This document shows positions 12,271 to 63,818 of a stretch of 64,000 nt of DNA, piece after piece; the stretch's first letter is position 1; each line of letters opens with the position of its first letter. Source of the stretch: Nemertoderma westbladi (taxonomy: Eukaryota > Animalia > Xenacoelomorpha); contig JAUCBJ010001865.1 of NCBI GenBank assembly GCA_032718475.1, positions 17,697-81,696 of the forward strand, read 5' to 3'. Both the position numbers and the translations under genes were made by a program. The notes beneath the pieces were generated by a model. The model searched no databases and had not been told where the DNA came from. It worked only from the letters and a program-made list of their open reading frames with translations.

Positions 12271-12454
12271 CCCGTCTTTGCACACCATGGAACCATCTCG
12301 GCATACAGTCTTATAAGCTTTGTTCTCATTTATCGGACATAGCCCATCGTGGCAGTAGGCCAGCTCCGTGCACTCGGTCCCAGGCGAACACTCCACAGTA
12401 GAACCTTCGACGGGCTCACACTCTTTCGTACAACAGTTGCCTCCGGCCGAGGGA
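12271..12454 (-). CDS. ADAM10: ADAM10-like exon G (disintegrin / start of Cys-rich domain)
   Basis: ttgtag|T CCC...GAC GGG|gtaagt; (S)PSAGGNCCTKECEPVEGSTVECSPGTECTELAYCHDGLCPINENKAYKTVCRDGSMVCKDG; phase 2->0 matches the previous exon. Confidence 0.88.
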
Positions 12455-12550
12455 CTACAACGAAAACATATCGCATGTAATTCCTTAAAACCAACTTGAT
12501 AGAAACGATATGTGTACGAATATGTTATATTTAGGGCACAACTATCCTAC

Positions 12551-12707
12551 CTGCATGAACCATTCTGTATCGTGCAACCACCAGAACCCGTATCTGAAGG
12601 GGGTTTACAACACTTGTCTCCGCTCGCTTCACACATCTCTTTCGTGCCACAATCACATTCTTCTCCTTGCTCCACAATTTCGTTACCACAAATTGGTTTT
12701 CCAGATT
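12551..12707 (-). CDS. ADAM10: ADAM10-like exon F (disintegrin N-terminal part)
   Basis: atttag|AA TCT...TGC AG|gtagga; (E)[33 protein letters not shown]..., compare ADAM10 [21 protein letters not shown]; phase 1->2. Confidence 0.92.
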
Positions 12708-12815
12708 CTAAATAATAGTTTAAAATTATAAGAGAACAAGACCGGGGAAGAAAATATAACTAATTTAAGGAAATCATTAACTAGTAGGTAGCACCAGGTG
12801 ACACATTGCCGCCAC

Positions 12816-13447
12816 AACATACAGCTTGGAAACAGGAACCTTTGCCGCTATCCAGTACAGCAGTGATGTTGCTTATGCTGCACTCTGAGAAAACATATCT
12901 TGGAAACAGGAGCCTTTGCCGCTAACAGCAGTAATGTTGCTTATGCTGCACTCTGAGACAACATACCTTGGAAACAGGAACCTTTGCCGCTCTCCAGTAC
13001 AGCAGTGATGTTGCTTATGCTGCACTCTGAAAAAACATACCTTGGAAACAGGAGCCTTTGCCGCTAACAGCAGTAATGTTGCTTATGCTGCACTCTGAGA
13101 CAACATATCTTGGAAACAGGAGCCTTTGCCGCTAACAGCAGTAATGTTGCTTATGCTGCACTCTGAGACAACATACCTTGGAAACAGGAACCTTTGCCGC
13201 TCTCCAGTACAGCAGTGATGTTGCTTATGCTGCACTCTGAAAAAACATACCTTGGAAACAGGAGCCTTTGCCGCTAACAGCAGTAATGTTGCTTATGCTG
13301 CACTCTGAGACAACATACCTTGGAAACAGGAGCCTTTGCCGCTATCCAGGAGCTTATGCTGCACTCTGAGAACACATACCTTGGAAACAGGAGCCTTTGC
13401 CGCTATCCAGTACAGCAGTGATGTTGCTTATGCTGCACTCTGAGACA
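12816..13447 (-). repeat. 61-76-bp tandem array made of exon E 3' end plus donor site (9 extra copies)
   Basis: Units ACATACCTTGGAAACAGGAACCTTTGCCGC..GCTGCACTCTGAG repeat the last ~65 exon nt and the GTATGT donor. Confidence 0.9.
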
Positions 13448-13453
13448 ACATAC

Positions 13454-13616
13454 CTTGGAAACAGGAACCTTTGCCGCTATCCAGTACAGCAGTGATGTTG
13501 CTTATGCTGCACTCTGAGAACACATTGTTATTTGGTTTCACGCCGCTCGTCGATTGGGGAAACATTATGAAATTGCCGTCCGGGCCACCAGGTTGGCATT
13601 TAGATGGGAAATCGTG
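13454..13616 (-). CDS. ADAM10: ADAM10-like exon E (third Zn-ligand His and Met-turn)
   Basis: gcag|CAC GAT...CAA G|gtatgt; HDFPSKCQPGGPDGNFIMFPQSTSGVKPNNNVFSECSISNITAVLDSGKGSCFQ, compare ADAM10 [24 protein letters not shown]. Confidence 0.92.
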
Positions 13617-37435: not shown

Positions 37436-40400
37436 CTAGCTCCACTCATACTTACCGTAACTACCCAAGGAGTGGCCCAGCTCCCACTCAAACTTACCGT
37501 AACTACCCAAGGAGTGTCCCAGGCCAGCTCCCACTCATACTTACCGAACTACCCAAGGAGTGGTCCAGCTCCCACTCATACTTACCGGACTACCCAAGGA
37601 GTGGCCCAGCTCCCACTCATACTTACCTGACTACCCAAGGAGTGGTCCAGCTCCCACTCATACTTACCGGACTACCCAAGGAGTGGTCCAGCTCCCACTC
37701 ATACTTACCGGACTACCCAAGGAGTGGCCCAGCGCCCACTCATACTTACCGGACTACCCAAGGAGTGGCCCAGCGCCCACTCATACTTACCGTAACTACC
37801 CAAGGAGTGGCCCAGCTCCCACTCATACTTACCGGACTACCCAAGGAGTAGTCCAGCTCCCACTCATACTTACCGGACTACCCAAGGAGTGGCCCAGCGC
37901 CCACTCATACTTACCGGACTACCCAAGGAGTGGCCCAGCGCCCACTCATACTTAACTGGACTACCCAAGGAGTGGTCCCGCTCCCACTCATACTTACCGT
38001 AACTACCCAAGGAGTGGCCCAGCTCCCACTCATACTTACCGGACTACCCAAGGAGTGGTCCAGCTCCCACTCATACTTACCGGACTACCCAAGGAGTGGT
38101 CCAGCTCCCACTCATACTTAACTGGACTACCCAAGGAGTGGTCCCGCTCCCACTCACTCATACTTACCGGACTACCCAAGGAGTGGTCCAGCTCCCACTC
38201 ATACTTACCGGACTACCCAAGGAGTGGTCCAGCGCCCCCTCATACTTAACTGGACTACCCAAGGAGTGGTCCCGCTCCCACTCATACTTACCGGACTACC
38301 CAAGGAGTGGTCCAGCTCCCACTCATACTTACCGGACTACCCAAGGAGTGGCCCAGCGCCCACTCATACTTACCGGACTACCCAAGGAGTGGCCCAGCGC
38401 CCACTCATACTTACCGTAACTACCCAAGGAGTGGCCCAGCTCCCACTCATACTTACCGGACTACCCAAGGAGTGGCCCAGCGCCCACTCATACTTACCGG
38501 ACTACCCAAGGAGTGGCCCAGCGCCCACTCATACTTAACTGGACTACCCAAGGAGTGGTCCAGCTCCCACTCATACTTACCGGACTACCCAAGGAGTGGT
38601 CCAGCTCCCACTCATACTTACCGGACTACCCAAGGAGTGGCCCAGCTCCCACTCATACTTACCGGACTACCCAAGGAGTGGTCCAGCTCCCACTCATACT
38701 TACCGTAACTACCCAAGGAGTGGCCCAGCTCCCACTCAAACTTAACTGGACTACCCAAGGAGTGGCCCAGCTCCCACTCATAGTTACCGAACTACCCAAG
38801 GAGTGGCCCAGCGCCCACTCATACTTACCGGACTACCCAAGGAGTGGCCCAGCGCCCACTCATACTTACCGTAACTACCCAAGGAGTGGCCCAGCTCCCA
38901 CTCAAACTTAACTGGACTACCCAAGGAGTGGCCCAGCTCCCACTCATAGTTACCGAACTACCCAAGGAGTGGCCCAGCGCCCACTCATACTTACCGGACT
39001 ACCCAAGGAGTGGTCCAGCTCCCACTCATACTTACCGTAACTACCCAAGGAGTGGCCCAGCTCCCACTCAAACTTAACTGGACTACCCAAGGAGTGGCCC
39101 AGCTCCCACTCATAGTTACCGAACTACCCAAGGAGTGGCCCAGCGCCCACTCATACTTACTGTAACTACCCAAGGAGTGGCCCAGCTCCCACTCATACTT
39201 ACCGGACTACCCAAGGAGTGGCCCAGCGCCCACTCATACTTACCGGACTACCCAAGGAGTGGCCCAGCGCCCACTCATACTTACCGTAACTACCCAAGGA
39301 GTGGCCCAGCTCCCACTCATACTTACCGGACTACCCAAGGAGTGGTCCCGCTCCCACTCATACTTACCGGACTACCCAAGGAGTGGTCCAGCTCCCACTC
39401 ATACTTACCGGACTACCCAAGGAGTGGTCCAGCGCCCCCTCATACTTAACTGGACTACCCAAGGAGTGGTCCCGCTCCCACTCATACTTACCGGACTACC
39501 CAAGGAGTGGTCCAGCTCCCACTCATACTTACCGGACTACCCAAGGAGTGGCCCAGCGCCCACTCATACTTACCGGACTACCCAAGGAGTGGCCCAGCGC
39601 CCACTCATACTTACCGTAACTACCCAAGGAGTGGCCCAGCTCCCACTCATACTTACCGGACTACCCAAGGAGTGGTCCAGCTCCCACTCATACTTACCGG
39701 ACTACCCAAGGAGTGGCCCAGCTCCCACTCATACTTACCGGACTACCCAAGGAGTGGTCCAGCTCCCACTCATACTTACCGTAACTACCCAAGGAGTGGC
39801 CCAGCTCCCACTCAAACTTAACTGGACTACCCAAGGAGTGGCCCAGCTCCCACTCATAGTTACCGAACTACCCAAGGAGTGGCCCAGCGCCCACTCATAC
39901 TTACCTGACTACCCAAGGAGTGGCCCAGCGCCCACTCATACTTACCGTAACTACCCAAGGAGTGGCCCAGCTCCCACTCAAACTTAACTGGACTACCCAA
40001 GGAGTGGCCCAGCTCCCACTCATAGTTACCGAACTACCCAAGGAGTGGCCCAGCGCCCACTCATACTTACCGGACTACCCAAGGAGTGGTCCAGCTCCCA
40101 CTCATACTTACCGTAACTACCCAAGGAGTGGCCCAGCTCCCACTCAAACTTAACTGGACTACCCAAGGAGTGGCCCAGCTCCCACTCATAGTTACCGAAC
40201 TACCCAAGGAGTGGCCCAGCGCCCACTCATACTTACTGTAACTACCCAAGGAGTGGCCCAGCTCCCACTCATACTTACCGGACTACCCAAGGAGTGGCCC
40301 AGCGCCCACTCATACTTACCGGACTACCCAAGGAGTGGCCCAGCGCCCACTCATACTTACCGTAACTACCCAAGGAGTGGCCCAGCTCCCACTCATACTT

Positions 40401-42139
40401 ACCGGACTACCCAAGGAGTGGTCCAGCTCCCACTCATACTTACCGGACTACCCAAGGAGTGGCCCAGCGCCCACTCATACTTACCGGACTACCCAAGGAG
40501 TGGCCCAGCGCCCACTCATACTTAACTGGACTACCCAAGGAGTGGTCCCGCTCCCACTCATACTTACCGTAACTACCCAAGGAGTGGCCCAGCTCCCACT
40601 CATACTTACCGGACTACCCAAGGAGTGGTCCAGCTCCCACTCATACTTACCGGACTACCCAAGGAGTGGTCCAGCTCCCACTCATACTTAACTGGACTAC
40701 CCAAGGAGTGGTCCCGCTCCCACTCATACTTACCGGACTACCCAAGGAGTGGTCCAGCTCCCACTCATACTTACCGGACTACCCAAGGAGTGGTCCAGCG
40801 CCCCCTCATACTTAACTGGAGTACCCAAGGAGTGGTCCCGCTCCCACTCATACTTACCGGACTACCCAAGGAGTGGTCCAGCTCCCACTCATACTTACCG
40901 GACTACCCAAGGAGTGGCCCAGCGCCCACTCATACTTACCGGACTACCCAAGGAGTGGCCCAGCGCCCACTCATACTTACCGTAACTACCCAAGGAGTGG
41001 CCCAGCTCCCACTCATACTTACCGGACTACCCAAGGAGTGGTCCAGCTCCCACTCATACTTACCGGACTACCCAAGGAGTGGCCCAGCTCCCACTCATAC
41101 TTACCGGACTACCCAAGGAGTGGTCCAGCTCCCACTCATACTTACCGTAACTACCCAAGGAGTGGCCCAGCTCCCACTCATACTTAACTGGACTACCCAA
41201 GGAGTGGCCCAGCTCCCACTCATAGTTACCGAACTACCCAAGGAGTGGCCCAGCGCCCACTCATACTTACCGGACTACCCAAGGAGTGGCCCAGCGCCCA
41301 CTCAAACTTAACTGGACTACCCAAGGAGTGGCCCAGCTCCCACTCATAGTTACCGAACTACCCAAGGAGTGGCCCAGCGCCCACTCATACTTACCGGACT
41401 ACCCAAGGAGTGGCCCAGCTCCCACTCATAGTTACCGAACTACCCAAGGAGTGGCCCAGCGCCCACTCATACTTACCGGACTACCCAAGGAGTGGCCCAG
41501 CGCCCACTCAAACTTAACTGGACTACCCAAGGAGTGGCCCAGCTCCCACTCATAGTTACCGAACTACCCAAGGAGTGGCCCAGCGCCCACTCATACTTAC
41601 CGGACTACCCAAGGAGTGGCCCAGCGCCCACTCATACTTACCGTAACTACCCAAGGAGTGGCCCAGCTCCCACTCAAACTTAACTGGACTACCCAAGGAG
41701 TGGCCCAGCTCCCACTCATAGTTACCGAACTACCCAAGGAGTGGCCCAGCGCCCACTCATACTTACCGGACTACCCAAGGAGTGGACCAGCTCCCACTCA
41801 TACTTACCGTAACTACCCAAGGAGTGGCCCAGCTCCCACTCAAACTTAACTGGACTACCCAAGGAGTGGCCCAGCTCCCACTCATAGTTACCGAACTACC
41901 CAAGGAGTGGCCCAGCGCCCACTCATACTTACTGTAACTACCCAAGGAGTGGCCCAGCTCCCACTCATACTTACCGGACTACCCAAGGAGTGGCCCAGCG
42001 CCCACTCATACTTACCGGACTACCCAAGGAGTGGCCCAGCGCCCACTCATACTTACCGTAACTACCCAAGGAGTGGCCCAGCTCCCACTCATACTTACCG
42101 GACTACCCAAGGAGTGGCACAGCACCCACTCATACTTAC
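37436..42139 (-). repeat. 41-bp satellite = last 27 nt of exon D plus 5' splice site (~110 copies)
   Basis: Minus-strand unit GAGCTGGGCCACTCCTTGGGTAGTCCG|GTAAGTATGAGTGG; 1076-bp higher-order repeat visible. Confidence 0.95.
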
Positions 42140-42303
42140 CGGACTACCCAAGGAGTGGCCCAGCTCGTGAGCAAATGTGATGTGCGATATAGTGGTTGGA
42201 ACTCGTGAGCCGAAGTTATTGATAGAAACAACTCCGACGTTAATAGTTCTGTATCCCCGTGATCCGAAGTTGATCTTCTTCTGGCAAATACCTCCAACTG
42301 GAC
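42140..42303 (-). CDS. ADAM10: ADAM10-like exon D (Zn-binding HExxH motif)
   Basis: ttcag|GT CCA...AGT CCG|gtaagt; (G)PVGGICQKKINFGSRGYRTINVGVVSINNFGSRVPTTISHITFAHELGHSLGSP, compare ADAM10 VSHITFAHEVGHNFGSP. Confidence 0.95.
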
Positions 42304-45300
42304 CTGAACAAAGTAAAAATATAGAAACATAACCAACTGGACCTGTACAAGGTAAAAATATAGAAACATAACCAACTGGACCTGTACAAAGTAAAAATAT
42401 AGAAACATAACCAACTGGACCTGTACAAAGTAAAAATATAGAAACATAACCAACTGGACCTGTACAAAGTAAAAATATAGAAACATAACCAACTGGACCT
42501 GTACAAAGTAAAAATATAGAAACATAACCAACTGGACCTGTACAAAGTAAAAATATAGAAACATAACCAACTGGACCTGTACAAAGTAAAAATATAGAAA
42601 CATAACCAACTGGACCTGAACAAAGTAAAAATATAGAAACATAACCAACTGGACCTGTACAAAGTAAAAATATAGAAACATAACCAACTGGACCTGTACA
42701 AAGTAAAAATATAGAAACATAACCAACTGGACCTGTACAAAGTAAAAATATAGAAACATAACCAACTGGACCTGTACAAAGTAAAAATATAGAAACATAA
42801 CCAACTGGACCTGTACAAAGTAAAAATATAGAAACATAACCAACTGGACCTGTATAAAGTAAAAATATAGAAACATAACCAACTGGACCTGTACAAAGTA
42901 AAAATATAGAAACATAACCAACTGGACCTGTACAAAGTAAAAATATAGAAACATAACCAACTGGACCTGTACAAAGTAAAAATATAGAAATATAACCAAC
43001 TGGACCTGTACAAGGTAAAAATATAGAAACATAACCAACTGGACCTGTACAAGGTAAAAATATAGAAACATAACCAACTGGACCTGTACAAAGTAAAAAT
43101 ATAGAAACATAACCAACTGGACCTGTACAAAGTAAAAATATAGAAACATAACCAACTGGACCTGTGTACAAAGTAAAAATATAGAAACATAACCAACTGG
43201 ACCTGTACAAAGTAAAAATATAGAAATATAACCAACTGGACCTGTACAAAGTAAAAATATAGAAACATAACCAACTGGACCTGAACAAAGTAAAAATATA
43301 GAAACATAACCAACTGGACCTGTACAAAGTAAAAATATAGAAATATAACCAACTGGACCTGTACAAGGTAAAAATATAGAAACATAACCAACTGGACCTG
43401 TACAAAGTAAAAATATAGAAACATAACCAACTGGACCTGTACAAAGTAAAAATATAGAAACATAACCAACTGGACCTGTACAAAGTAAAAATATAGAAAC
43501 ATAACCAACTGGACCTGTACAAAGTAAAAATATAGAAACATAACCAACTGGACCTGTATAAAGTAAAAATATAGAAACATAACCAACTGGACCTGTACAA
43601 AGTAAAAATATAGAAACATAACCAACTGGACCTGAACAAAGTAAAAATATAGAAACATAACCAACTGGACCTGTACAAAGTAAAAATATAGAAATATAAC
43701 CAACTGGACCTGTACAAGGTAAAAATATAGAAACATAACCAACTGGACCTGTACAAGGTAAAAATATAGAAACATAACCAACTGGACCTGTACAACGTAA
43801 AAATATAGAAACATAACCAACTGGACCTGTACAAAGTAAAAATATAGAAACATAACCAACTGGACCTGAACAAAGTAAAAATATAGAAACATAACCAACT
43901 GGACCTGTACAAAGTAAAAATATAGAAATATAACCAACTGGACCTGTACAAGGTAAAAATATAGAAACATAACCAACTGGACCTGTACAAAGTAAAAATA
44001 TAGAAACATAACCAACTGGACCTGTACAAAGTAAAAATATAGAAACATAACCAACTGGACCTGTACAAAGTAAAAATATAGAAACATAACCAAATGGACC
44101 TGTACAAAGTAAAAATATAGAAACATAACCAACTGGACCTGTATAAAGTAAAAATATAGAAACATAACCAACTGGACCTGTACAAAGTAAAAATATAGAA
44201 ACATAACCAACTGGACCTGAACAAAGTAAAAATATAGAAACATAACCAACTGGACCTGTACAAAGTAAAAATATAGAAATATAACCAACTGGACCTGTAC
44301 AAGGTAAAAATATAGAAACATAACCAACTGGACCTGTACAAGGTAAAAATATAGAAACATAACCAACTGGACCTGTACAAAGTAAAAATATAGAAACATA
44401 ACCAACTGGACCTGTACAAAGTAAAAATATAGAAACATAACCAACTGGACCTGAACAAAGTAAAAATATAGAAACATAACCAACTGGACCTGTACAAAGT
44501 AAAAATATAGAAACATAACCAACTGGACCTGTACAAGGTAAAAATATAGAAACATAACCAACTGGACCTGTACAACGTAAAAATATAGAAACATAACCAA
44601 CTGGACCTGTACAAAGTAAAAATATAGAAACATAACCAACTGGACCTGTGTACAAAGTAAAAATATAGAAACATAACCAACTGGACCTGTACAAAGTAAA
44701 AATATAGAAATATAACCAACTGGACCTGTACAAAGTAAAAATATAGAAACATAACCAACTGGACCTGTACAAAGTAAAAATATAGAAACATAACCAACTG
44801 GACCTGAACAAAGTAAAAATATAGAAACATAACCAACTGGACCTGTACAAAGTAAAAATATAGAAACATAACCAACTGGACCTGTACAAGGTAAAAATAT
44901 AGAAACATAACCAACTGGACCTGTACAAAGTAAAAATATAGAAACATAACCAACTGGACCTGTACAAAGTAAAAATATAGAAACATAACCAACTGGACCT
45001 GTACAAAGTAAAAATATAGAAACATAACCAACTGGACCTGTACAAGGTAAAAATATAGAAACATAACCAACTGGACCTGTACAAAGTAAAAATATAGAAA
45101 CATAACCAACTGGACCTGTACAAAGTAAAAATATAGAAATATAACCAACTGGACCTGTACAAGGTAAAAATATAGAAACATAACCAACTGGACCTGTACA
45201 AGGTAAAAATATAGAAACATAACCAACTGGACCTGTACAAAGTAAAAATATAGAAACATAACCAACTGGACCTGTACAAAGTAAAAATATAGAAACATAA

Positions 45301-48300
45301 CCAACTGGACCTGAACAAAGTAAAAATATAGAAACATAACCAACTGGACCTGTACAAAGTAAAAATATAGAAACATAACCAACTGGACCTGTACAAGGTA
45401 AAAATATAGAAACATAACCAACTGGACCTGTACAACGTAAAAATATAGAAACATAACCAACTGGACCTGTACAAAGTAAAAATATAGAAACATAACCAAC
45501 TGGACCTGTGTACAAAGTAAAAATATAGAAACATAACCAACTGGACCTGTACAAAGTAAAAATATAGAAATATAACCAACTGGACCTGTACAAAGTAAAA
45601 ATATAGAAACATAACCAACTGGACCTGTACAAAGTAAAAATATAGAAACATAACCAACTGGACCTGAACAAAGTAAAAATATAGAAACATAACCAACTGG
45701 ACCTGAACAAAGTAAAAATATAGAAACATAACCAACTGGACCTGTACAAAGTAAAAATATAGAAATATAACCAACTGGACCTGTACAAGGTAAAAATATA
45801 GAAACATAACCAACTGGACCTGTACAAAGTAAAAATATAGAAACATAACCAACTGGACCTGTACAAAGTAAAAATATAGAAACATAACCAACTGGACCTG
45901 TACAAAGTAAAAATATAGAAACATAACCAAATGGACCTGTACAAAGTAAAAATATAGAAACATAACCAACTGGACCTGTATAAAGTAAAAATATAGAAAC
46001 ATAACCAACTGGACCTGTACAAAGTAAAAATATAGAAACATAACCAACTGGACCTGAACAAAGTAAAAATATAGAAACATAACCAACTGGACCTGTACAT
46101 GGTAAAAATATAGAAACATAACCAACTGGACCTGTACAAAGTAAAAATATAGAAACATAACCAACTGGACCTGTACAAGGTAAAAATATAGAAACATAAC
46201 CAACTGGACCTGTACAAAGTAAAAATATAGAAACATAACCAAATGGACCTGTACAAAGTAAAAATATAGAAACATAACCAACTGGACCTGTACAAAGTAA
46301 AAATATAGAAATATAACCAACTGGACCTGTACAAGGTAAAAATATAGAAACATAACCAACTGGACCTGTACAAGGTAAAAATATAGAAACATAACCAACT
46401 GGACCTGTACAAAGTAAAAATATAGAAACATAACCAACTGGACCTGTACAAAGTAAAAATATAGAAACATAACCAACTGGACCTGAACAAAGTAAAAATA
46501 TAGAAACATAACCAACTGGACCTGTACAAAGTAAAAATATAGAAACATAACCAACTGGACCTGTACAAGGTAAAAATATAGAAACATAACCAACTGGACC
46601 TGTACAACGTAAAAATATAGAAACATAACCAACTGGACCTGTACAAAGTAAAAATATAGAAACATAACCAACTGGACCTGTGTACAAAGTAAAAATATAG
46701 AAACATAACCAACTGGACCTGTACAAAGTAAAAATATAGAAATATAACCAACTGGACCTGTACAAAGTAAAAATATAGAAACATAACCAACTGGACCTGT
46801 ACAAAGTAAAAATATAGAAACATAACCAACTGGACCTGAACAAAGTAAAAATATAGAAACATAACCAACTGGACCTGAACAAAGTAAAAATATAGAAACA
46901 TAACCAACTGGACCTGTACAAAGTAAAAATATAGAAATATAACCAACTGGACCTGTACAAGGTAAAAATATAGAAACATAACCAACTGGACCTGTACAAA
47001 GTAAAAATATAGAAACATAACCAACTGGACCTGTACAAAGTAAAAATATAGAAACATAACCAACTGGACCTGTACAAAGTAAAAATATAGAAACATAACC
47101 AAATGGACCTGTACAAAGTAAAAATATAGAAACATAACCAACTGGACCTGTATAAAGTAAAAATATAGAAACATAACCAACTGGACCTGTACAAAGTAAA
47201 AATATAGAAACATAACCAACTGGACCTGAACAAAGTAAAAATATAGAAACATAACCAACTGGACCTGTACAAAGTAAAAATATAGAAATATAACCAACTG
47301 GACCTGTACAAGGTAAAAATATAGAAACATAACCAACTGGACCTGTACAAGGTAAAAATATAGAAACATAACCAACTGGACCTGTACAAAGTAAAAATAT
47401 AGAAACATAACCAACTGGACCTGTACAAAGTAAAAATATAGAAACATAACCAACTGGACCTGAACAAAGTAAAAATATAGAAACATAACCAACTGGACCT
47501 GTACAAAGTAAAAATATAGAAACATAACCAACTGGACCTGTACAAGGTAAAAATATAGAAACATAACCAACTGGACCTGTACAACGTAAAAATATAGAAA
47601 CATAACCAACTGGACCTGTACAAAGTAAAAATATAGAAACATAACCAACTGGACCTGTGTACAAAGTAAAAATATAGAAACATAACCAACTGGACCTGTA
47701 CAAAGTAAAAATATAGAAATATAACCAACTGGACCTGTACAAAGTAAAAATATAGAAACATAACCAACTGGACCTGTACAAAGTAAAAATATAGAAACAT
47801 AACCAACTGGACCTGAACAAAGTAAAAATATAGAAACATAACCAACTGGACCTGTACAAAGTAAAAATATAGAAACATAACCAACTGGACCTGTACAAGG
47901 TAAAAATATAGAAACATAACCAACTGGACCTGTACAAAGTAAAAATATAGAAACATAACCAACTGGACCTGTACAAAGTAAAAATATAGAAACATAACCA
48001 ACTGGACCTGTACAAAGTAAAAATATAGAAACATAACCAACTGGACCTGTACATGGTAAAAATATAGAAACATAACCAACTGGACCTGTACAAAGTAAAA
48101 ATATAGAAACATAACCAACTGGACCTGTACATGGTAAAAATATAGAAATATAACCAACTGGACCTGTACAAGGTAAAAATATAGAAACATAACCAACTGG
48201 ACCTGTACAAGGTAAAAATATAGAAACATAACCAACTGGACCTGTACAAAGTAAAAATATAGAAACATAACCAACTGGACCTGTACAAAGTAAAAATATA

Positions 48301-51300
48301 GAAACATAACCAACTGGACCTGAACAAAGTAAAAATATAGAAACATAACCAACTGGACCTGTACAAAGTAAAAATATAGAAACATAACCAACTGGACCTG
48401 TACAAAGTAAAAATATAGAAACATAACCAACTGGACCTGTACAAGGTAAAAATATAGAAACATAACCAACTGGACCTGTACAAGGTAAAAATATAGAAAC
48501 ATAACCAACTGGACCTGTACAAAGTAAAAATATAGAAACATAACCAACTGGACCTGTACAAAGTAAAAATATAGAAACATAACCAACTGGACCTGTACAA
48601 AGTAAAAATATAGAAACATAACCAACTGGACCTGTACAAGGTAAAAATATAGAAACATAACCAACTGGACCTGTACAAAGTAAAAATATCGAAACATAAC
48701 CAACTGGACCTGTACAAAGTAAAAATATAGAAACATAACCAACTGGACCTGAACAAAGTAAAAATATAGAAACATAACCAACTGGACCTGTACAAAGTAA
48801 AAATATAGAAACATAACCAACTGGACCTGTACAAAGTAAAAATATAGAAACATAACCAACTGGACCTGTACAAGGTAAAAATATAGAAACATAACCAACT
48901 GGACCTGTACAAAGTAAAAATATCGAAACATAACCAACTGGACCTGTGTATAAAGTAAAAATATAGAAACATAACCAACTGGACCTGTACAAAGTAAAAA
49001 TATCGAAACATAACCAACAGGACCTGTGTATAAAGTAAAAATATAGAAACATAACCAACTGGACCTGTACAAAGTAAAAATATAGAAACATAACCAACTG
49101 GACCTGTACAAAGTAAAAATATCGAAACATAACCAACTGGACCTGTGTATAAAGTAAAAATATAGAAACATAACCAACTGGACCTGTACAAAGTAAAAAT
49201 ATAGAAACATAACCAACTGGACCTGTACAAAGTAAAAATATAGAAACATAACCAACTGGACCTGAACAAAGTAAAAATATAGAAACATAACCAACTGGAC
49301 CTGTACAAGGTAAAAATATCGAAACATAACCAACTGGACCTGTACAAAGTAAAAATATAGAAACATAACCAACTGGACCTGTACAAGGTAAAAATATCGA
49401 AACATAACCAACAGGACCTGTGTATAAAGTAAAAATATAGAAACATAACCAACTGGACCTGTACAAAGTAAAAATATAGAAACATAACCAACTGGACCTG
49501 TACAAGGTAAAAATATAGAAACATAACCAACTGGACCTGTACAAGGTAAAAATATAGAAACATAACCAACTGGACCTGTACAAAGTAAAAATATAGAAAC
49601 ATAACCAACTGGACCTGTACAAAGTAAAAATATAGAAACATAACCAACTGGACCTGTACAAAGTAAAAATATAGAAACATAACCAACTGGACCTGAACAA
49701 AGTAAAAATATAGAAACATAACCAACTGGACCTGTACAAAGTAAAAATATAGAAACATAACCAACTGGACCTGTACAAGGTAAAAATATAGAAACATAAC
49801 CAACTGGACCTGTACAAGGTAAAAATATAGAAACATAACCAACTGGACCTGTACAAAGTAAAAATATAGAAACATAACCAACTGGACCTGAACAAAGTAA
49901 AAATATAGAAACATAACCTACTGGACCTGAACCAAGTAAAAATATAGAAACATAACCAACTGGACCCGAACAAAGTAAAAATATAGAAACATAACCAACT
50001 GGACCAGTATAAGGTAAAAATATAGAAACATAACCAACTGGACCTGTATAAAGTAAAAATATAGAAACATAACCAACTGGACCTGTACAAGGTAAAAATA
50101 TAGAAACATAACCAACTGGACCTGTACAAAGTAAAAATATAGAAACATAACCAACTGGACCTGTGTACAAAGTAAAAATATAGAAACATAATCAACTGGA
50201 CCTGAACAAAGTAAAAATATAGAAACATAACCAACTGGACCTGTATAAAGTAAAAATATAGAAACATAACCAACTGGACCTGTACAAAGTAAAAATATAG
50301 AAACATAACCAACTGGACCTGTACAAAGTAAAAATATAGAAACATAACCAACTGGACCTGTACAAAGTAAAAATATAGAAACATAACCAACTGGACCTGA
50401 ACAAAGTAAAAATATAGAAACATAACCAACTGGACCTGTACAAAGTAAAAATATAGAAACATAACCAACTGGACCTGTACAAAGTAAAAATATAGAAACA
50501 TAACCAACTGGACCTGTACAAAGTAAAAATATAGAAACATAACCAACTGGACCTGTACAAAGTAAAAATATAGAAACATAACCAACTGGACCTGTACAAG
50601 GTAAAAATATAGAAACATAACCAACTGGACCTGTACAAAGTAAAAATATAGAAACATAACCAACTGGACCTGTACAAGGTAAAAATATAGAAACATAACC
50701 AACTGGACCTGTACAAAGTAAAAATATAGAAACATAACCAACTGGACCTGTACAAAGTAAAAATATAGAAACATAACCAACTGGACCTGTACAAAGTAAA
50801 AATATAGAAACATAACCAACTGGACCTGTATAAAGTAAAAATATAGAAATATAACCAACTGGACCTGTACAAAGTAAAAATATAGAAACATAACCAACTG
50901 GACCTGTACAAAGTAAAAATATAGAAACATAACCAACTGGACCTGAACAAAGTAAAAATATAGAAACATAACCAACTGGATCTGAACAAAGTAAAAATAT
51001 AGAAACATAACCAACTGGACCTGTACAAAGTAAAAATATAGAAACATAACCAACTGGACCTGTACAAAGTAAAAATATAGAAACATAACCAACTGGACCT
51101 GAACAAAGTAAAAATATAGAAACATAACCAACTGGACCTGTACAAAGTAAAAATATAGAAACATAACCAACTGGACCTGAACAAAGTAAAAATATAGAAA
51201 CATAACCAACTGGATCTGAACAAAGTAAAAATATAGAAACATAACCAACTGGACCTGTACAAAGTAAAAATATAGAAACATAACCAACTGGACCTGAACA

Positions 51301-52090
51301 AAGTAAAAATATAGAAACATAACCAACTGGACCTGTACAAAGTAAAAATATAGAAACATAACCAACTGGACCTGAACAAAGTAAAAATATAGAAACATAA
51401 CCAACTGGATCTGAACAAAGTAAAAATATAGAAACATAACCAACTGGACCTGTACAAAGTAAAAATATAGAAACATAACCAACTGGACCTGTACAAAGTA
51501 AAAATATAGAAACATAACCAACTGGACCTGTACAAAGTAAAAATATAGAAACATAACCAACTGGACCTGAACAAAGTAAAAATATAGAAACATAACCAAC
51601 TGGATCTGAACAAAGTAAAAATATAGAAACATAACCAACTGGACCTGTACAAAGTAAAAATATAGAAACATAACCAACTGGACCTGAACAAAGTAAAAAT
51701 ATAGAAACATAACCAACTGGACCTGTACAAAGTAAAAATATAGAAACATAACCAACTGGACCTGAACAAAGTAAAAATATAGAAACATAACCAACTGGAT
51801 CTGAACAAAGTAAAAATATAGAAACATAACCAACTGGACCTGTACAAAGTAAAAATATAGAAACATAACCAACTGGACCTGTACAAAGTAAAAATATAGA
51901 AACATAACCAACTGGACCTGAACAAAGTAAAAATATAGAAACATAACCAACTGGATCTGAACAAAGTAAAAATATAGAAACATAACCAACTGGACCTGTA
52001 CAAAGTAAAAATATAGAAACATAACCAACTGGACCTGTACAAAGTAAAAATATAGAAACATAACCAACTGGACCTGTACATGGTAAAAAT
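42304..52090 (-). repeat. 39-bp satellite = 3' splice site plus first 10 nt of exon D (~250 copies)
   Basis: Minus-strand unit TTATGTTTCTATATTTTTACTTTGTACAG|GTCCAGTTGG; 13-aa periodicity in the ORF track. Confidence 0.96.
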
Positions 52091-52096
52091 ATTGGC

Positions 52097-55000
52097 CTAC
52101 AGACTGACTGTCCCACAGCCAATGAATCCCACATAGACTGTCCCACTAGCAACTGATCGCCATATAGACTGTCCCACAGCCACTGAACGCCATATAGACT
52201 GTCCCACAGCCATACTGATCGCTATATAGACTGTCCCACAGCCACTGATCGCCATATAGACTGTCCCACAACCACTGATCATCATATAGACTGTCCCACA
52301 ACCACTGAACGCCATATAGACTGTCCCACAGCCACTGATCGCTATATAGACTGTCCCACAGCCACTGATCGCCATATAGACTGTCCCACAACCACTGATC
52401 ACCATATAGACTGTCCCACAACCACTGAACGCCATATAGACTCTCCCACAACCACTGAACGCCATATAGACTGTCCCACAACCACTGATGTCATATAGAG
52501 ATTGTCACAAAGCCACTGAACGCCATATAGACTGTCCCTCAACCACTGAACGCCATATAGACTGTCCCACAACCACTGATGTCATATAGAGACTGTCACA
52601 AAGCCACTAACGCCATATAGACTCACCCACAGCCACTGATCGCTATATAGACTGTCCCACAGCCACTGAACGCCATATAGACTGCCCACAACCATTGAAC
52701 GCCCTATAGACTGTACTACAACCATTGAACGCCATATAGACTGTCCCACAGCCACTGATCGCCATATAGACTCTCCCACAGCCGTTGAACGCCCTATAGG
52801 CTGTACTACAACCATTGAAAGCCATATAGACTGTCCCGCAACCACTGAACGCCATATAGACTGTCACAAAGCCACTGATCGCCATATAGACTGTCCCACA
52901 GCCACTGATCGCCATATAGACTCTCCCACAGCCGTTGAACGCCCTATAGACTGTACTACAACCATTGAACGCCATATAGACTGTCCCACAACCACTGAAC
53001 GCCATATAGACTGTCACAAAGCCACTGATGATCGCCATATAGACTGTCCCAGAGCCACTGATCGCCATATAGACTCTCCCACAGCCGCTGAACGCCCTAT
53101 AGACCGTACCACAACCATTGAACGCCATATAGACTGTCACAAAGTCACTGAACGCCATATAGTGTGTCCCACAGCCACTGAACGCCCTATAGACTGTCCC
53201 ACAACCACTGAACGCCATATAGACTGTCCCACAGCCACTGATCGCTATATAGACTGTCCCACAGCCACTGAACTCCATATAGACTGCCCACAACCATTGA
53301 ACGCCCTATAGACTGTCACAAAGCCACTGAACGCCATATAGACTGTCCACAACCACTGAACGCCAAATAGACTGTCCCACAGCCACTGAACGCCACATAG
53401 ACTGTCCCACAACCACTGAACGCCATATAGACTCTCCTACAGCCACTGATGCCATATAGAGACTGTCACACTGGCCACTGAACGCCATATAGACTCTTCC
53501 ACAGCCACTGATGCCAGATAGAGACTGTCACACTGGCCTCTGAACGCCATATAGACTATTCCACAGCCACTGTTTCATATAGAGACTGTCACACTGGCCA
53601 ATAAACGCCATATAGACTGTCCCACAACCACTGAACGCCCTATAAGACTGTCCCACAACCACTGGACGCCATATAGATTGTCCCACAACCACTGAACGCC
53701 ATATAGACTCTCCCACAGCCACTAATCGCCATATAGACTCTCCCACAGCCACTGATGCCATATAGAGACTGTCACACTGGCCACTGAACGCGATATAGAC
53801 TCTCCCACAACCACTGAACGCCATATAGACTGACCCAAAACCACTGATGTCATATAGAGACTGTCACAAAGCCACTGAACGCCATATAGACTGTCCCTCA
53901 ACCACTTAACGCCATATAGACTCTCCCACAGCCACTGATGCCATATATAGACTGTCCCACAGCCACTGATCGCCATATAGACTGTCCCACAACCACTGAA
54001 CGCCATATAGACTGTCCCACAACCACTGAACGCCATATAGACTGTCCCTCAACCACTGAACGCCATATAGAGACTGTCACACTGGCTATTGAACGCCGTA
54101 TAGACTGTCACAAAGCCACTGAACGCCATATAGACTGTCACAAAGCCACTGAACGCCATATATAGACTGTCCCACAACCGCTGAACGCCATATAGACTGT
54201 CCCACAACCACTGAACGCCATATAAAGACTGTCACACTGGCTATTGAACGCCGTATAGACTGTCACAAAGCCACTGAACGCCATATAGACTGTCACAAAG
54301 CCACTGAACGCCATATATAGACTGTCCCACAACCACTGAACGCCCTATAGACTGTCCCACAACCACTGAACGCCATATAGACTGTCCCACAACCACTGAA
54401 CGCCATATAGACTCTCCCACAGCAACTGATGCCATATAGAAACTGTCACACTGGCCATTGAACGCCATATAGACTCTCCCACAACTACTGAACGCCATAG
54501 ACTGTCCCACAAACACTGAACGCCATATAGACTGTCCCACAACCACTGAACGCCATATAGAGACAGTCACACTGGCCATTGAACGCCATATAAACTGTCA
54601 CAAAGCCACTGATCGCGATATAGACTGTCACAAAGCCACTGAACGCCATATAGACTAGACTGTCCCACAGCCACTGATCACCATATAGACTCACCCACAG
54701 CCACCGATCGCTATATAGACTGTTCCACAGCCACTGAACGCCATATAGACTGCCCCACTACCACTGATCGCCATATAGACTGTCCCACAGCCACTGATCG
54801 CCATATAGACTCTCCCACAGCCACTGATCGCTATATAGACTGTCCCACAGCCACTGATCGCCATATAGACTCTCCCACAACCACTGAACGCCATATAGAC
54901 TGTCCAACAACCACTGAACGCCATATAGACTGTCACAAAGCAACATATATACATATACACATATATAGACTCATATAGACTCTCCCACAGTCACTGATGC

Positions 55001-55835
55001 CATAGAGACTGTCACACTGGCCACTGAACGCCATATACTGTCCCACAGCCACTGAACGCCCTATAGACTGTCCCACAGCCACTGAACGCCATATAGACTC
55101 TCCCACAGTCACTGATGCCATAGAGACTGTCACACTGGCCACTGAACGCCATATAGACTCTCCCACAGCCACTGAACGCCATATAGACTCTCCCACAGTC
55201 ACTGATGCCATAGAGACTGTCCCACAGCCACTAATCGCCATATAGACTCTCCCACAGTCACTGATGCCATAGAGACTGTCACACTGGCCACTGAACGCCA
55301 TATAGACTCTCCCACAGTCACTGATGCCATAGAGACTGTCACACTGGCCACTGAACGCCATATACTGTCCCACAGCCACTGAACGCCATATAGACTGTCC
55401 ACAACCACTGAACGCCATATAGACTGTCACAAAGCCACTGAACGCCCTATAGACTGTCCCACAGCCACTAATCGCCATATAGACTCTCCCACAGTCACTG
55501 ATGCCATATAGAGACTGTCACACTGGCCACTGAACGCCCTATAGATTGTCCCACAACCACTGAACGCCATATAGATTTTCCCACAGCCACTGATGCCATA
55601 TAGAGACTGTCACACTGGCCACTGAACGCCATATAGACTCTCCCACAACCACTGAACGCCATATAGACTGTCACAAAGCCACTGAACGCCATATAGACTG
55701 TCACAAAGGCACTGAACGCCCTATAGACTGTCCCACAGCCACTGATCGCCATATAGACTGTCCCACAACCACTGAACGCCATATAGACTGTCACAAAGCT
55801 ACTGAATGCCACATAGACTATCCCACAGCCACTGG
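52097..55835. repeat. ~30-bp degenerate satellite (~120 copies) abutting the exon C donor
   Basis: ATAGACTGTCCCACAGCCACTGAACGCCAT units with many variants. Confidence 0.92.
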
Positions 55836-55841
55836 ACTTAC

Positions 55842-56034
55842 CTCCAACGGGAAACGCCATATAAGCCTCCCCCAAGGTGCCCTGAAAGTCCCTATTGACG
55901 AAGGAATAGACGAGACAGTAATTCTCCTTTTCGTAGCTAGTTGGTTGCTTCGCTAGCATGTCGAGGACGGCAGCGGAACCGACTCCAGATCTTCTCTTCA
56001 TTTCTCCGGTCGCCTCCTCCGGTGTCTTTTCAAT
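55842..56034 (-). CDS. ADAM10: ADAM10-like exon C (catalytic domain)
   Basis: tcttag|ATT GAA...GGA G|gtaagt; ...ENYCLVYSFVNRDFQGTLGEAYMAFPVG, compare ADAM10 [22 protein letters not shown]; phase 0->1. Confidence 0.9.
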
Positions 56035-58309: not shown

Positions 58310-61300
58310 TAATAACTGCAGAAGGTACCGGTCATAGAATGACTGCAGAAGGTAACGGTACTATAATGGCTGCATAAGGTACCGGTACTAGAATGACTGC
58401 AGTAGGTACCGGTCATAGAATGACTGCATAAGGTAACGGTACTAGAATGACTGCAGAAGGTACCGGTACTAGAATGACTGCAAAATGTACCGGTTATAGA
58501 ATGACTGCAGAAGGTACCGGAAATACAATAACGCAGAAGGTAGAAATATTAGGTAAAATTACTGCAGAAGTTACCAGTTCTAGAATGACGGCAAAACGTA
58601 CCGGTACAAGAATGACTGCATAAGGTACCGGTCATAGAATGACTGCAGAAGATAACGGTACTAGAATGACTGCAGAAGGTACCGGTCATAGAATGACTGC
58701 AGAAGGTACCGGTCATAGAATGACTGCAGAAGGTAACGGTACTAGAATGACTGCAGAAGGTACCGGTCATAGAATGACTGCAGACGGTACCGGTCATAGA
58801 ATGACAGCAGAAGGTAACGGTACTAGAATTAACGTAGAAGGTACCGGTCATAGAATGACTGCAGAAGGTACCGGTCGTAGAATGACTGCAGAAGGTAACG
58901 GTACTAGAATGACTGCAGAAGGTTCCGGTCATAGAATGACTGCAGAAGGTACCGGTCATAGAATGACTGCAGAAGGTAACGATACTAGAATGACTGCAGA
59001 AGGTACCGGTACTAGAATGACTGCAGAAGGTACCGGTCATAGAATGACTGCAGAAGGTACCGGTCATAGAATGACTGCAGAAGGTAACGGTACTAGAATG
59101 ACTGCAGAAGGTACCGGTCATAGAATGACTGCAGAAGGTACCGGTCATAGAATGACTGCAGAAGGTACCGGTAATAGAATGACTGCAGAAGGTATCGGTA
59201 CTAGAATGACTGCAGAAGGTACCGGTAATAGAATGACTGCAGAAGGTACCGGTACTAGAATGACTGCAGAAGGTAACGGTACTAGAATGACTGCAGAAGG
59301 TACCGGTCATAGAATGACTGCAGAAGGTACCGGTCATAGAATGACTGCAGAAGGTGCCGGTCATAGAATGACTGCAGAAGGTCCGGTCATAGAATGACTG
59401 CAGATGGTATCGGTACTAGAATGACTGCAGAAGGTGCCGGTCATAGAATGACTGCAGAAGGTGCCGGTCATAGAATGACTGCAGAAGGTCCGGTCATAGA
59501 ATGACTGCAGAAGGTATCGGTACTAGAATGACTGCAGAAGGTATCGGTACTAGAATGACTGCAGAAGGTAACGGTACTAGAATGACTGCAGAAGGTACCG
59601 GTCATAGAATGACTGCATAAGGTACCGGTCATAGAATGACTGCAGAAGGTACCGGTCATAGAATGACTGCAGAAGGTACCGGTCATAGAATGACTGCAGA
59701 AGGTAACGGTACTAGAATGACTGCAGAAGGTACCGGTCATAGAATGACTGCAGAAGGTACCGGTCATAGAATGACTGCAGAAGGTACCGGTAATAGAATG
59801 ACTGCAGAAGGTAACGGTACTAGAATGACTGCAGAAGGTAACGGTACTAGAATGACTGCAGAAGGTACCGGTCATAGAATGACTGCAGAAGGTATCGGTA
59901 CTAGAATGACTGCAGAAGGTACCGGTCATAGAATGACTGCAGAAGGAACCGGTCATAAAATGACTGCAGAAGGTACCGGTCATAAAATGACAGCAGAAGA
60001 TTCCGGTACTAGAATTAACGTAGAAGGTACCAGTACTAGAATGACTGCAGAAGTTACCGGTTCAAGAATGACTTACCTGTAGACGAGCGATTCGGAAATG
60101 AACTCGGCCATTTAAAGTGAAATTATAAATCGTGTTAACGGAGGCGAAATAGTTAACAAGAGAATTCTTAACGTTATTAAGAGCAGCCGCATCTCCGTCG
60201 GTGTTCTCTTTTGTTGGTCTGCCAACCTCATCATAGAAAGTCCAATACCGGTCATAGAATGACTGCAGAAGGTACCGGTCATAGAAGGACTGCAGAAGGT
60301 GCCGGTCATAGAATGACTGCAGAAGGTCCGGTCATAGAATGACTGCAGAAGGTTCCGGTCATAGAATGACTGCAGAAGGTCCGGTCATAGAATGACTGCA
60401 GATGGTATCGGTACTAGAATGACTGCAGAAGGTGCCGGTCATAGAATGACTGCAGAAGGTGCCGGTCATAGAATGACTGCAGAAGGTCCCGGTCATAGAA
60501 TGACTGCAGAAGGTATCGGTACTAGAATGACTGCAGAAGGTATCGGTACTAGAATGACTGCAGAAGGTATCGGTACTAGAATGACTGCAGAAGGTAACGG
60601 TACTAGAATGACTGCAGAAGGTGCCGGTCATAGAATGACTGCAGAAGGTGCCGGTCATAGAATGACTGCAGAAGGTGCCGGTCATAGAATGACTGCAGAA
60701 GGTCCGGTCATAGAATGACTGCAGAAGGTGCCGGTCATAGAATGACTGCAGAAGGTGCCGGTCATAGAATGACTGCAGAAGGTACCGGTCATAGAATGAC
60801 TGCAGAAGGTATCGGTACTAGAATGACTGCAGAAGGTATCGGTACTAGAATGACTGCAGAAGGTATCGGTACTAGAATGACTGCAGAAGGTAACGGTACT
60901 AGAATGACTGCAGAAGGTGCCGGTCATAGAATGACTGCAGAAGGTGCCGGTCATAGAATGACTGCAGAAGGTACCGGTCATAGAATGACTGCAGAAGGTA
61001 TCGGTACTAGAATGACTGCAGAAGGTATCGGTACTAGAATGACTGCAGAAGGTAACGGTACTAGAATGACTGCAGAAGGTACCGGTCATAGAATGACTGC
61101 AGAAGGTACCGGTCATAGAATGACTGCAGAAGGTACCGGTAATAGAATGACTGCAGAAGGTAACGGTACTAGAATGACTGCAGAAGGTACCGGTACTAGA
61201 ATGACTGCAGAAGGTACCGGTCATAGAATGACTGCAGAAGGTACCGGTCATAGAATGACTGCAGAAGGTAACGGTACTAGAATGACTGCAGAAGGTACCG

Positions 61301-62630
61301 GTCATAGAATGACTGCAGAAGGTACCGGTCATAGAATGACTGCAGAAGGTACCGGTAATAGAATGACTGCAGAAGGTAACGGTACTAGAATGACTGCAGA
61401 AGGTAACGGTACTAGAATGACTGCAGAAGGTACCGGTCATAGAATGACTGCAGAAGGTAACGGTACTAGAATGACTGCAGAAGGTACCGGTCATAGAATG
61501 ACTGCAGAAGGTAACGGTACTAGAATGACTGCAGAAGGTACCGGTCATAGAATGACTGCAGAAGGTGCCGGTCATAGAATGACTGCAGAAGGTCCGGTCA
61601 TAGAATGACTGCAGATGGTATCGGTACTAGAATGACTGCAGAAGGTGCCGGTCATAGAATGACTGCAGAAGGTGCCGGTCATAGAATGACTGCAGATGGT
61701 ATCGGTACTAGAATGACTGCAGAAGGTGCCGGTCATAGAATGACTGCAGAAGGTCCGGTCATAGAATGACTGCAGAAGGTATCGGTACTAGAATGACTGC
61801 AGAAGGTATCGGTACTAGAATGACTGCAGAAGGTAACGGTACTAGAATGACTGCAGAAGGTACCGGTCATAGAATGACTGCAGAAGGTACCGGTCATAGA
61901 ATGACTGCAGAAGGTGCCGGTCATAGAATGACTGCAGAAGGTCCGGTCATAGAATGACTGCAGATGGTATCGGTACTAGAATGACTGCAGAAGGTGCCGG
62001 TCATAGAATGACTGCAGAAGGTGCCGGTCATAGAATGACTGCAGAAGGTCCGGTCATAGAATGACTGCAGAAGGTATCGGTACTAGAATGACTGCAGAAG
62101 GTATCGGTACTAGAATGACTGCAGAAGGTAACGGTACTAGAATGACTGCAGAAGGTACCGGTCATAGAATGACTGCATAAGGTACCGGTCATAGAATGAC
62201 TGCAGAAGGTACCGGTCATAGAATGACTGCAGAAGGTACCGGTCATAGAATGACTGCAGAAGGTAACGGTACTAGAATGACTGCAGAAGGTACCGGTCAT
62301 AGAATGACTGCAGAAGGTACCGGTCATAGAATGACTGCAGAAGGTACCGGTAATAGAAAGACTGCAGAAGGTAACGGTACTAGAATGACTGCAGAAGGTA
62401 ACGGTACTAGAATGACTGCAGAAGGTACCGGTCATAGAATGACTGCAGAAGGTATCGGTACTAGAATGACTGCAGAAGGTACCGGTCATAGAATGACTGC
62501 AGAAGGAACCGGTCATAAAATGACTGCAGAAGGTACCGGTCATAAAATGACAGCAGAAGATTCCGGTACTAGAATTAACGTAGAAGGTACCAGTACTAGA
62601 ATGACTGCAGAAGTTACCGGTTCAAGAATG
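58310..62630. repeat. 27-bp satellite in two blocks (58310-60070 and 60247-62630) with a 2560-bp segmental duplication
   Basis: AGAATGACTGCAGAAGGTACCGGTCAT units; ORFs 59468/62028 and 59636/62196 are offset by exactly 2560. Confidence 0.93.
60077..60246 (-). pseudogene. Duplicated copy of exon B lacking its acceptor and first 4 nt
   Basis: Nearly identical to 62637-62806 (one synonymous change seen, GCAGCT vs GCGGCT); keeps the GTAAGT donor; upstream flank is satellite. Confidence 0.88.
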
Positions 62631-62636
62631 ACTTAC

Positions 62637-62810
62637 CTGTAGACGAGCGATTCGGAAATGAACTCGGCCATTTAAAGTGAAATTATAAATCGTGTTAACG
62701 GAGGCGAAATAGTTAACAAGAGAATTCTTAACGTTATTAAGAGCAGCTGCATCTCCGTCGGTGTTCTCTTTTGTTGGTCTGCCAACCTCATCATAGAAAG
62801 TCCAATCAAC
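62637..62810 (-). CDS. ADAM10: ADAM10-like exon B (start of catalytic domain)
   Basis: atttag|GTT GAT...CTA CAG|gtaagt; VDWTFYDEVG...NYFASVNTIYNFTLNGRVHFRIARLQ; 58 codons, phase 0-0. Confidence 0.85.
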
Positions 62811-63039: not shown

Positions 63040-63731
63040 GATACGTTACACGTATCGAGATTCTCACCTGAACTACTACGTTACACGTATCGAGATTCTC
63101 ACCTGAACTACCACGTTACACGTATTTCGATTCTCACCTGAACTACTACGTTGCACGTAATTCGATTCTCACCTGAACTACTACGTTACACGTATTTCGA
63201 TTCTCACCTGAACTACTACGTTACACATATCGCGATTCTCACCTGAACTACCACGTTACACTATTTCGATTCTCACCTGAACTACTATGTTACACATATC
63301 GAGATTCTCACCTGAACTACTACGTCACACGTATCGCGATTCTCACCTGAACTACTACGTTACACGTAATTCGATTCTCACCTGAACTTCTACGTCACAC
63401 GTATCGCAATTCTCACCTGAACTACTACGTTACACGTATCGCGATTCTCACCTGAACTACTACGTTACACGTATCGCGATTCTCACCTGAACTACTATGT
63501 TACACGTATCGCGATTCTCACCTGAACTACTACGTTACACGTATCGCGATTCTCACCTGAACTACTACGTTACACGTATCGAGATTCTCACCTGAACTAC
63601 TATGTTACACGTATCGCGATTCTCACCTGAACTACTACGTTACACGTATCGCGATTCTCACCTGAACTACTATGTTACACGTATCGCGATTCTCACCCGA
63701 ACTACTACGTTACACGTATCGAGATTCTCAC
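63040..63731 (-). repeat. 35-bp satellite = last 23 nt of exon A plus donor site (~20 copies)
   Basis: Minus-strand unit ATACGTGTAACGTAGTAGTTCAG|GTGAGAATCGCG. Confidence 0.92.
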
Positions 63732-63818
63732 CTGAACTACTACGTTACACGTATTACGATGCCCCTCAGTCTGGCGCTTTTTCCTTGATCCTTGGCTGAA
63801 ATATTTGAGTCGGGGATC
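63732..63818 (-). CDS. ADAM10: ADAM10-like exon A (furin site at prodomain/catalytic boundary)
   Basis: ttttag|GAT CCC...GTT CAG|gtgaga; DPRLKYFSQGSRKKRQTEGHRNTCNVVVQ, compare ADAM10 RKKRTTSAEKNTCQLYIQ; phase 0-0 joins exon B. Confidence 0.85.

What the first reader, a model, noticed from the sequence alone, without database searches (positions are those of the whole stretch)
37436..52090. The catalytic exon is sandwiched between ~250 tandem copies of its own acceptor and ~110 copies of its own donor
Seen: the 164-nt HELGHSLGSP exon is flanked upstream by 9.8 kb of (polypyrimidine-CAG|GTCCAGTTGG)n and downstream by 4.7 kb of (last 27 exon nt|GTAAGTATGAGTGG)n. Many copies are as good as the real sites, and only the innermost pair gives the native protein. 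The coding exons show no stops or phase breaks, so the gene looks intact. Inference: an extreme natural test of exon definition, or a decoy array that lowers productive splicing. Satellites built from a gene's own splice junctions on both sides of one exon are not something I recognise as described at this scale.
Basis: partly seen in the sequence, partly recalled or inferred. Interest (0 to 1): 0.85.

Follow-up and report, generated by a model that had tools for sequence, protein, structure and literature searches.

The report
Exon sandwiched by its own splice-sites
In an animal ADAM10-like protease gene, the active-site exon sits between about 250 copies of its own splice acceptor and about 113 copies of its own splice donor, yet the one spliced transcript assembly seen uses the two sites next to the exon, so this is likely a harmless, unusually large two-sided case of the "mirage" repeats known from lancelets and human genes.

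Summary
The 164-nt zinc-motif exon (42303-42140, minus strand) of an intact ADAM10-like gene is flanked by 251 acceptor units of 39 bp (249 keep AG) and 114 donor units of 41/42 bp (95 keep GT), counts including the native sites. One spliced contig from public run X1 joins the neighbouring exons at the innermost acceptor and innermost donor, so the gene is very likely transcribed and correctly spliced. The class is known: 'mirage' minisatellites spanning exon-intron boundaries (amphioxus Adh3, globins; human F7, CBS), where splicing is mostly unaffected. Likely mechanism: neutral duplication and expansion, tolerated because neither array can define an exon alone and the nearest pair across the exon wins. 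The decoy idea has no support, but contigs cannot measure minor forms. Four more exon-edge arrays lie in the same gene, and this scan has noted the same repeat type in at least eight other pieces of this genome, some larger. What I did not find in print is this scale, or both sides of one exon. The acceptor side is the less explained one. Array lengths are unverified by long reads.

The parts
42140..42303 (-). Exon D, 164 nt, catalytic exon with the zinc motif HELGHSLGSP(H) of an ADAM10-like metalloprotease
   Evidence: best PDB matches are ADAM10, E 2e-13; Reprolysin_2; covered end to end by a spliced contig, no differing letters
42294..52092 (-). Acceptor mirage: about 250 copies of 29 intron nt + 10 exon nt (39 bp); 249 of 251 sites keep AG; no GTRAG inside
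37438..42166 (-). Donor mirage: about 113 copies of 27 exon nt + 14 intron nt (41/42 bp); 95 of 114 sites keep GT; no AG with a strong pyrimidine tract among the 8 commonest AG contexts
55842..56034 (-). Exon C, 193 nt; its 3' end is joined to exon D in the spliced contig
52106..55834 (-). 30-bp array (about 124 copies) starting at the exon C donor, resembling exon C end plus intron start but without the donor; with the 39-bp array it fills 13,518 of the 13,538 nt of intron C-D
   Evidence: donor motif found once only
13454..13616 (-). Exon E, 163 nt, third zinc histidine and Met-turn region; its 5' end is joined to exon D in the spliced contig
12814..13519 (-). Exon E donor mirage, about 10 units of 61-74 bp; 7 exact donor 12-mers, native included
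63732..63818 (-). Exon A (predicted), 87 nt, with a furin-type RKKR motif (label recalled)
63042..63754 (-). Exon A donor mirage, 20 units of 35 bp; 19 exact donor 12-mers, native included
62637..62810 (-). Exon B (predicted), 174 nt
58311..62633 (-). 27-bp array starting 4 nt after the exon B donor; holds a second copy of most of exon B with its donor (60246-60077)
12271..12707 (-). Exons F1 (12707-12551) and F2 (12454-12271), predicted, cysteine-rich disintegrin-like part; no arrays at their edges

Best explanation
These are two very long 'mirage' minisatellites, each grown from one edge of the catalytic exon of an intact ADAM10-like gene, and they are likely neutral passengers, because the spliced form seen uses the two sites next to the exon, likely chosen by exon definition. 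Shown: the arrays, their make-up, the intact frame, and one contig joining exons C, D and E at the innermost sites. Inferred: (1) each array began as a short tandem duplication across the exon edge, which leaves one full exon and pushes truncated copies into the intron; (2) it grew by repeated block duplication (slippage or unequal exchange), as its nested higher-order pattern suggests; (3) the acceptor array holds no donor and the donor array no good acceptor, so no false exon can be defined within either, and among cross-exon pairs the nearest pair, with full exon context, wins; (4) with little splicing cost, selection neither removes nor disables the copies.
For: Spliced contig in run X1 covers 42140-42305 with no differing letters and runs on into exon E (13616) and exon C (55844; the 2 letters between are the AG shared by both sides). 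No other contig of 1,901,655 in X1 was laid on the 2 donor and 3 acceptor copies given. Frame intact over 374 codons, 34-39% identical over about 310-415 columns in the 12 best of 39 long homologues, no insertion at the C/D or D/E junction. No GTRAG in the acceptor array; the 8 commonest AG contexts in the donor array are at most 64% pyrimidine. The nearest competing acceptor and donor are both intact, so nothing suggests purging. Exact runs of 30 and 12 units repeat within the arrays, against at most 12 and 5 in 30 shuffles. Precedent: mirages do not disturb splicing in amphioxus (PMC3087553, PMC3902484); only the first of identical donors is used in human F7 (PMC1557585); under exon definition the upstream of two identical donors was chosen exclusively in minigenes (PMC9225289).
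Against: The RNA evidence is one contig from one run whose kind is only guessed ('DNA?'); contigs drop rare forms, so minor mis-splicing or exon skipping is unmeasured. For acceptors, PMC9225289 reports the upstream preference as reduced, not reversed, under exon definition, so strict use of the last of 251 acceptors is less well covered by precedent. In human 6-16 and CBS two pseudo-donors are used besides the real one. The mechanistic papers are mammalian; this animal is unidentified. Neutrality does not explain why 6 of 11 arrays in the window end within 70 nt of an exon edge (about 10% expected each, binomial p 3e-4, threshold chosen after looking).
Confidence: 0.75

Rival explanations
1. 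The arrays act as a decoy or tuning device: hundreds of U1 and U2AF binding sites soak up splicing factors or divert splicing to nonsense forms, and so lower protease output in a copy-number-dependent way.
For: Most copies keep near-consensus signals; all 11 downstream donors tested give a stop; some human cases use pseudo-donors.
Against: The only spliced form seen is the native one; similar arrays sit at four other edges of this gene, two of them without a repeated donor, which looks indiscriminate; amphioxus mirages give no aberrant RNA.
Confidence: 0.08
2. The nearest upstream acceptors are used at a low level and give in-frame isoforms with 13 extra hydrophobic residues per copy just before the catalytic exon, a by-product or a source of new protein sequence.
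For: The 22 nearest upstream acceptors keep the frame with no stop, so nonsense-mediated decay would not remove such RNA; the first two give exons of 203 and 242 nt.
Against: No such contig was laid; the homologues aligned have no insertion there; the insertion would fall inside the folded protease domain.
Confidence: 0.07
3. The arrays exist but their length is inflated by the assembly.
For: 37.4-55.8 kb is almost continuous repeat around a 164-nt unique exon; exact internal repeats of up to 30 units (1.2 kb) occur; no DNA run or genome was available to check.
Against: 22 and 24 distinct unit variants recur in ordered, nested patterns with several different offsets (22, 25, 30, 52, 55, 77 units), as expected from real turnover; the window holds no N.
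Confidence: 0.07
4. The acceptor array is removed stepwise by recursive splicing at the AG|GT of each unit.
For: Each unit junction reads CAG|GT.
Against: The regenerated donor would be GTCCAG, far from GTRAGT, while all seven native donors of the gene read GTRAG, GTATG or GTAGG.
Confidence: 0.03

Closest known systems
Amphioxus 'mirage' minisatellites (Adh3, globins BflGb6 and BflGb9, troponin C, PGBD5); PMC3087553 and PMC3902484, passages read; the Adh3 paper itself was not held
   Same: Tandem units that span an exon-intron boundary and repeat the splice signal into the intron; both 5' and 3' boundaries can be involved; not all copies keep the signal; normal splicing persists.
   Different: 3-6 units in BflGb6 against 114 and 251 here; here both edges of one exon are amplified and a 13.5-kb intron is over 99% edge-derived repeat; length instability is not tested here.
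Human splice-donor minisatellites: F7 IVS7 (37 bp, 5-9 units), CBS IVS13, 6-16, LMNB2, PDGF; PMC1557585, abstract, introduction and discussion read
   Same: The first unit holds the real donor; identical pseudo-donors follow; the most upstream site is the one (or the main one) used.
   Different: 5-25 units, donor side only; no acceptor array on the same exon in the sections read.
Cross-exon proximity under exon definition; PMC9225289, abstract and results sections read
   Same: With long flanking introns the sites nearest across the exon are favoured, which matches the junctions seen.
   Different: Tested on pairs of competing human sites, not hundreds; the effect was clear for donors and only partial for acceptors.

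Membership tests
Mirage minisatellite | Head-to-tail repeat whose unit spans an exon-intron boundary of the host gene | tested here: met
   Acceptor unit = 29 intron + 10 exon nt; donor unit = 27 exon + 14 intron nt
Mirage minisatellite | Many but not all copies keep AG or GT | tested here: met
   249 of 251 keep AG; 95 of 114 keep GT
Mirage minisatellite | Normal mRNA is still made from the authentic sites | tested here: met
   One contig joins C-D-E at the innermost sites; minor forms not measurable
Mirage minisatellite | Length instability between alleles or cells | not testable with these tools
   No second haplotype or DNA reads; nested block repeats are only indirect
ADAM10-like metalloprotease gene | Reprolysin domain with HExxHxxGxxH zinc motif followed by a cysteine-rich disintegrin-like region in one frame | tested here: met
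   Pfam did not hit the single disintegrin exons, so that label rests on alignment to homologues and recall
Recursive splice-site array | AG followed by a consensus donor at each junction | tested here: not met
   CAG|GTCCAG; no GTRAG in the acceptor array
Regulatory decoy splice-site array | Measurable diversion of splicing that depends on the copies | not testable with these tools
   Only contigs were available

The most novel reading that the evidence does not exclude
This animal has a mutational process aimed at exon edges, perhaps coupled to co-transcriptional splicing, that seeds duplications across splice junctions and builds whole introns from them; exon D shows that its spliceosome picks one pair out of more than 23,000 intact acceptor-donor pairings (249 x 95), including the last of 251 acceptors, by cross-exon proximity alone.
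Probability: 0.2. Interest if true: 0.75.

Novelty: new variant of a known kind. Interest (0 to 1): 0.4.

Why it matters
It is a ready-made natural experiment on how a spliceosome chooses among near-identical sites on both sides of one exon, most usefully for acceptors, where the rule is less settled. It also shows that long introns can be built almost wholly from copies of their own ends. As an element it is not new, and nothing here points to a function.

Tried and rejected
No whole genome is held for the window, so no genome-wide count of my own. No RNA holder listed among the sequencing runs; runs X2 and X3 gave no contig on exon D. Laying X1 on exon B (62560-62900) gave no contig; the tool says this can be false, so the exon A donor, the choice between the two exon B copies and the B-C junction stay untested; the exon E donor was not tested either. 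A word-index protein search with the exon D peptide among longer proteins found nothing; the full HMMER search found 484 relatives, none over 63% identical among the 150 listed, so no protein of this species. The original Adh3 mirage paper was not held under DOI or PMC id. The earthworm metallothionein paper has intronic minisatellites but the passages read show no junction repeats. Per-position variation in the units gave no sign of purging or special conservation of AG/GT, but variants spread by block duplication, so the test is weak. Microhomology at the duplication joints (GAGCT at the donor array) is suggestive only, since it could be a partial last unit. No further exons were recognised below 12271 by a cysteine-pattern scan. 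The Atlas gave no answer for the 1023-aa transposon frame. Supplements of the papers were not opened.

Full report
What is there. The window is animal DNA with a minus-strand gene of at least seven exons: A 63818-63732, B 62810-62637, C 56034-55842, D 42303-42140, E 13616-13454, F1 12707-12551 and F2 12454-12271. All have AG and GT edges and join into 374 codons without a stop. The exon D peptide matches only ADAM10 among solved structures (3 distinct sequences, E about 2e-13) and reprolysin families in Pfam. The joined protein is 34-39% identical to the 12 best of 39 long unnamed homologues and has no insertion at the C/D or D/E junction in the 7 aligned. No whole genome is held and the organism was not identified.

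The arrays. Tandem Repeats Finder reports 250.7 copies of 39 bp at 42294-52092 and 114.1 copies of 41 bp at 37438-42166. The acceptor unit is the last 29 intron nt plus the first 10 exon nt. Of 251 sites, native included, 249 keep AG and 33 equal the native site over -26..+10. The donor unit is the last 27 exon nt plus the first 14 intron nt. Of 114 sites, 95 keep GT, 83 GTAAGT, and 57 equal the native site over -3..+6 (the split shown was off by one and was redone). The core motifs hardly occur elsewhere in the window. There are 22 and 24 distinct unit variants in nested blocks: exact runs of 30 and 12 units recur, against at most 12 and 5 in 30 shuffles of unit order. This fits real minisatellite turnover, but it does not prove the assembled length.

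Consequences of using outer sites. All 11 downstream donors tested lead to a stop codon. The 22 nearest upstream acceptors keep the frame and add 13 residues each, so those forms would escape nonsense-mediated decay. The acceptor array has no GTRAG, and the 8 commonest AG contexts in the donor array are at most 64% pyrimidine. A false exon therefore cannot easily be defined within one array; competition is among pairs across exon D, giving exons of 164, 203, 242 nt and so on.

Splicing evidence. One public run, X1, holds the exon (0.73 of 22 words; kind guessed as DNA). Laid on 42050-42430, which holds 2 donor and 3 acceptor copies, it gave one contig of 2,518 nt out of 1,901,655. The contig covers 42140-42305 with no differing letters and has loose ends on both sides. 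These match the start of exon E (13587-13616) and the end of exon C (55844-55873) exactly and uniquely; the two extra letters at 42304-42305 are the AG common to the intron end and exon C. So both junctions use the innermost sites. An intron-less contig joined at exact GT-AG edges is most simply mRNA; a very recent retrocopy is not formally excluded. Contigs drop rare variants, so minor forms are not excluded. Two other runs of the same study (other organisms) gave nothing, and a second laying on exon B gave no contig, which the tool flags as possibly false.

Context in the gene. Four more arrays begin at exon edges: 20 x 35 bp at the exon A donor and about 10 x 61-74 bp at the exon E donor both repeat the donor; a 27-bp array after the exon B donor and a 30-bp array after the exon C donor do not repeat it. 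The 30-bp and 39-bp arrays fill 13,518 of the 13,538 nt of intron C-D, so the branch point must lie in repeat sequence (inference). Of the 11 arrays with score 200 or more (overlapping rows merged), 6 end within 70 nt of one of 14 exon edges; about 10% each is expected, binomial p 3e-4, with the distance chosen after looking. Earlier notes of this scan, unchecked by me, describe the same repeat type in at least eight other pieces of this genome, up to about 2,100 copies; none held all the words of a two-sided query.

What is known. Tandem duplications of exon-intron boundaries were named 'mirages' in amphioxus. They occur at 5' and 3' boundaries, have 3-6 units in globin BflGb6, are length-unstable, and do not disturb splicing (PMC3087553, passages; PMC3902484, one passage; the Adh3 paper is known to me only through these). 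Human F7, CBS, 6-16, LMNB2 and PDGF have donor-spanning minisatellites of 5-25 units; the first site is used alone in F7, LMNB2 and PDGF, and with two pseudo-sites in CBS and 6-16 (PMC1557585, abstract, introduction, discussion). Under exon definition the sites nearest across the exon are favoured; this was exclusive for identical donors in minigenes but only a reduced upstream preference for acceptors (PMC9225289, abstract and results). Six searches of the held library showed no case of one exon flanked on both sides by hundreds of copies; most subscription papers are not searched and supplements were not opened.

How it most likely works. A short duplication across an exon edge leaves one full exon and puts a truncated copy in the intron (inferred). 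The pair then expands by block duplication (inferred). The spliceosome defines exon D by the nearest acceptor-donor pair with full exon context and removes each array with its intron (junctions shown once; mechanism inferred). With little cost, the copies are neither purged nor disabled: the nearest competitors are intact. Rivals are a decoy function, minor in-frame isoforms, inflated assembly and recursive splicing; none has positive support. Unexplained: why arrays crowd at exon edges in this genome, and why the last of 251 acceptors wins so cleanly.

Verdict. Real, transcribed as far as one contig shows, and a member of a known class at unusual scale and in a two-sided arrangement. Interest 0.4.

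Noticed in passing
window 60262-60077, minus strand: A second copy of 170 of the 174 nt of exon B with its donor (2,560 nt downstream, 1 synonymous difference) lies inside the 27-bp array. The repeat unit supplies a CCTTCTGCAG acceptor 16 nt upstream, which would give a 186-nt in-frame exon without a stop: a possible exon duplication born from the array. Use untested (blank).
   Followed up: partly
window 17100-35778: A BEL/Pao-type LTR retrotransposon of about 18.7 kb inside intron D-E, on the plus strand: 1.9-kb terminal repeats 99.4% identical (recent), a 2,116-aa frame with Pao peptidase and integrase hits, and extra frames of 488 aa (19816-21282) and 1,023 aa (29692-32763) with no Pfam hit; an internal 520-bp inverted repeat at 29207-29726.
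   Followed up: partly
window 52106-55834: The 30-bp unit looks like a fusion of exon C end and intron start with the donor deleted: a mirage that has lost its splice site.
   Followed up: partly
window 143-1649 and 36452-37106: A LINE-type reverse transcriptase frame (498 aa, RVT_1) and a 96% identical 3' fragment in intron D-E whose tail is repeated 5 times (69 bp).
   Followed up: partly
window 8875-10024 and 14820-16080: A (TCAG)287 microsatellite and a 24-bp x 52 array not tied to any recognised exon edge.
   Followed up: no
window 12271-63818: About 51% of the recognised gene span is tandem repeat; the short 96-nt intron F1-F2 has no array.
   Followed up: no
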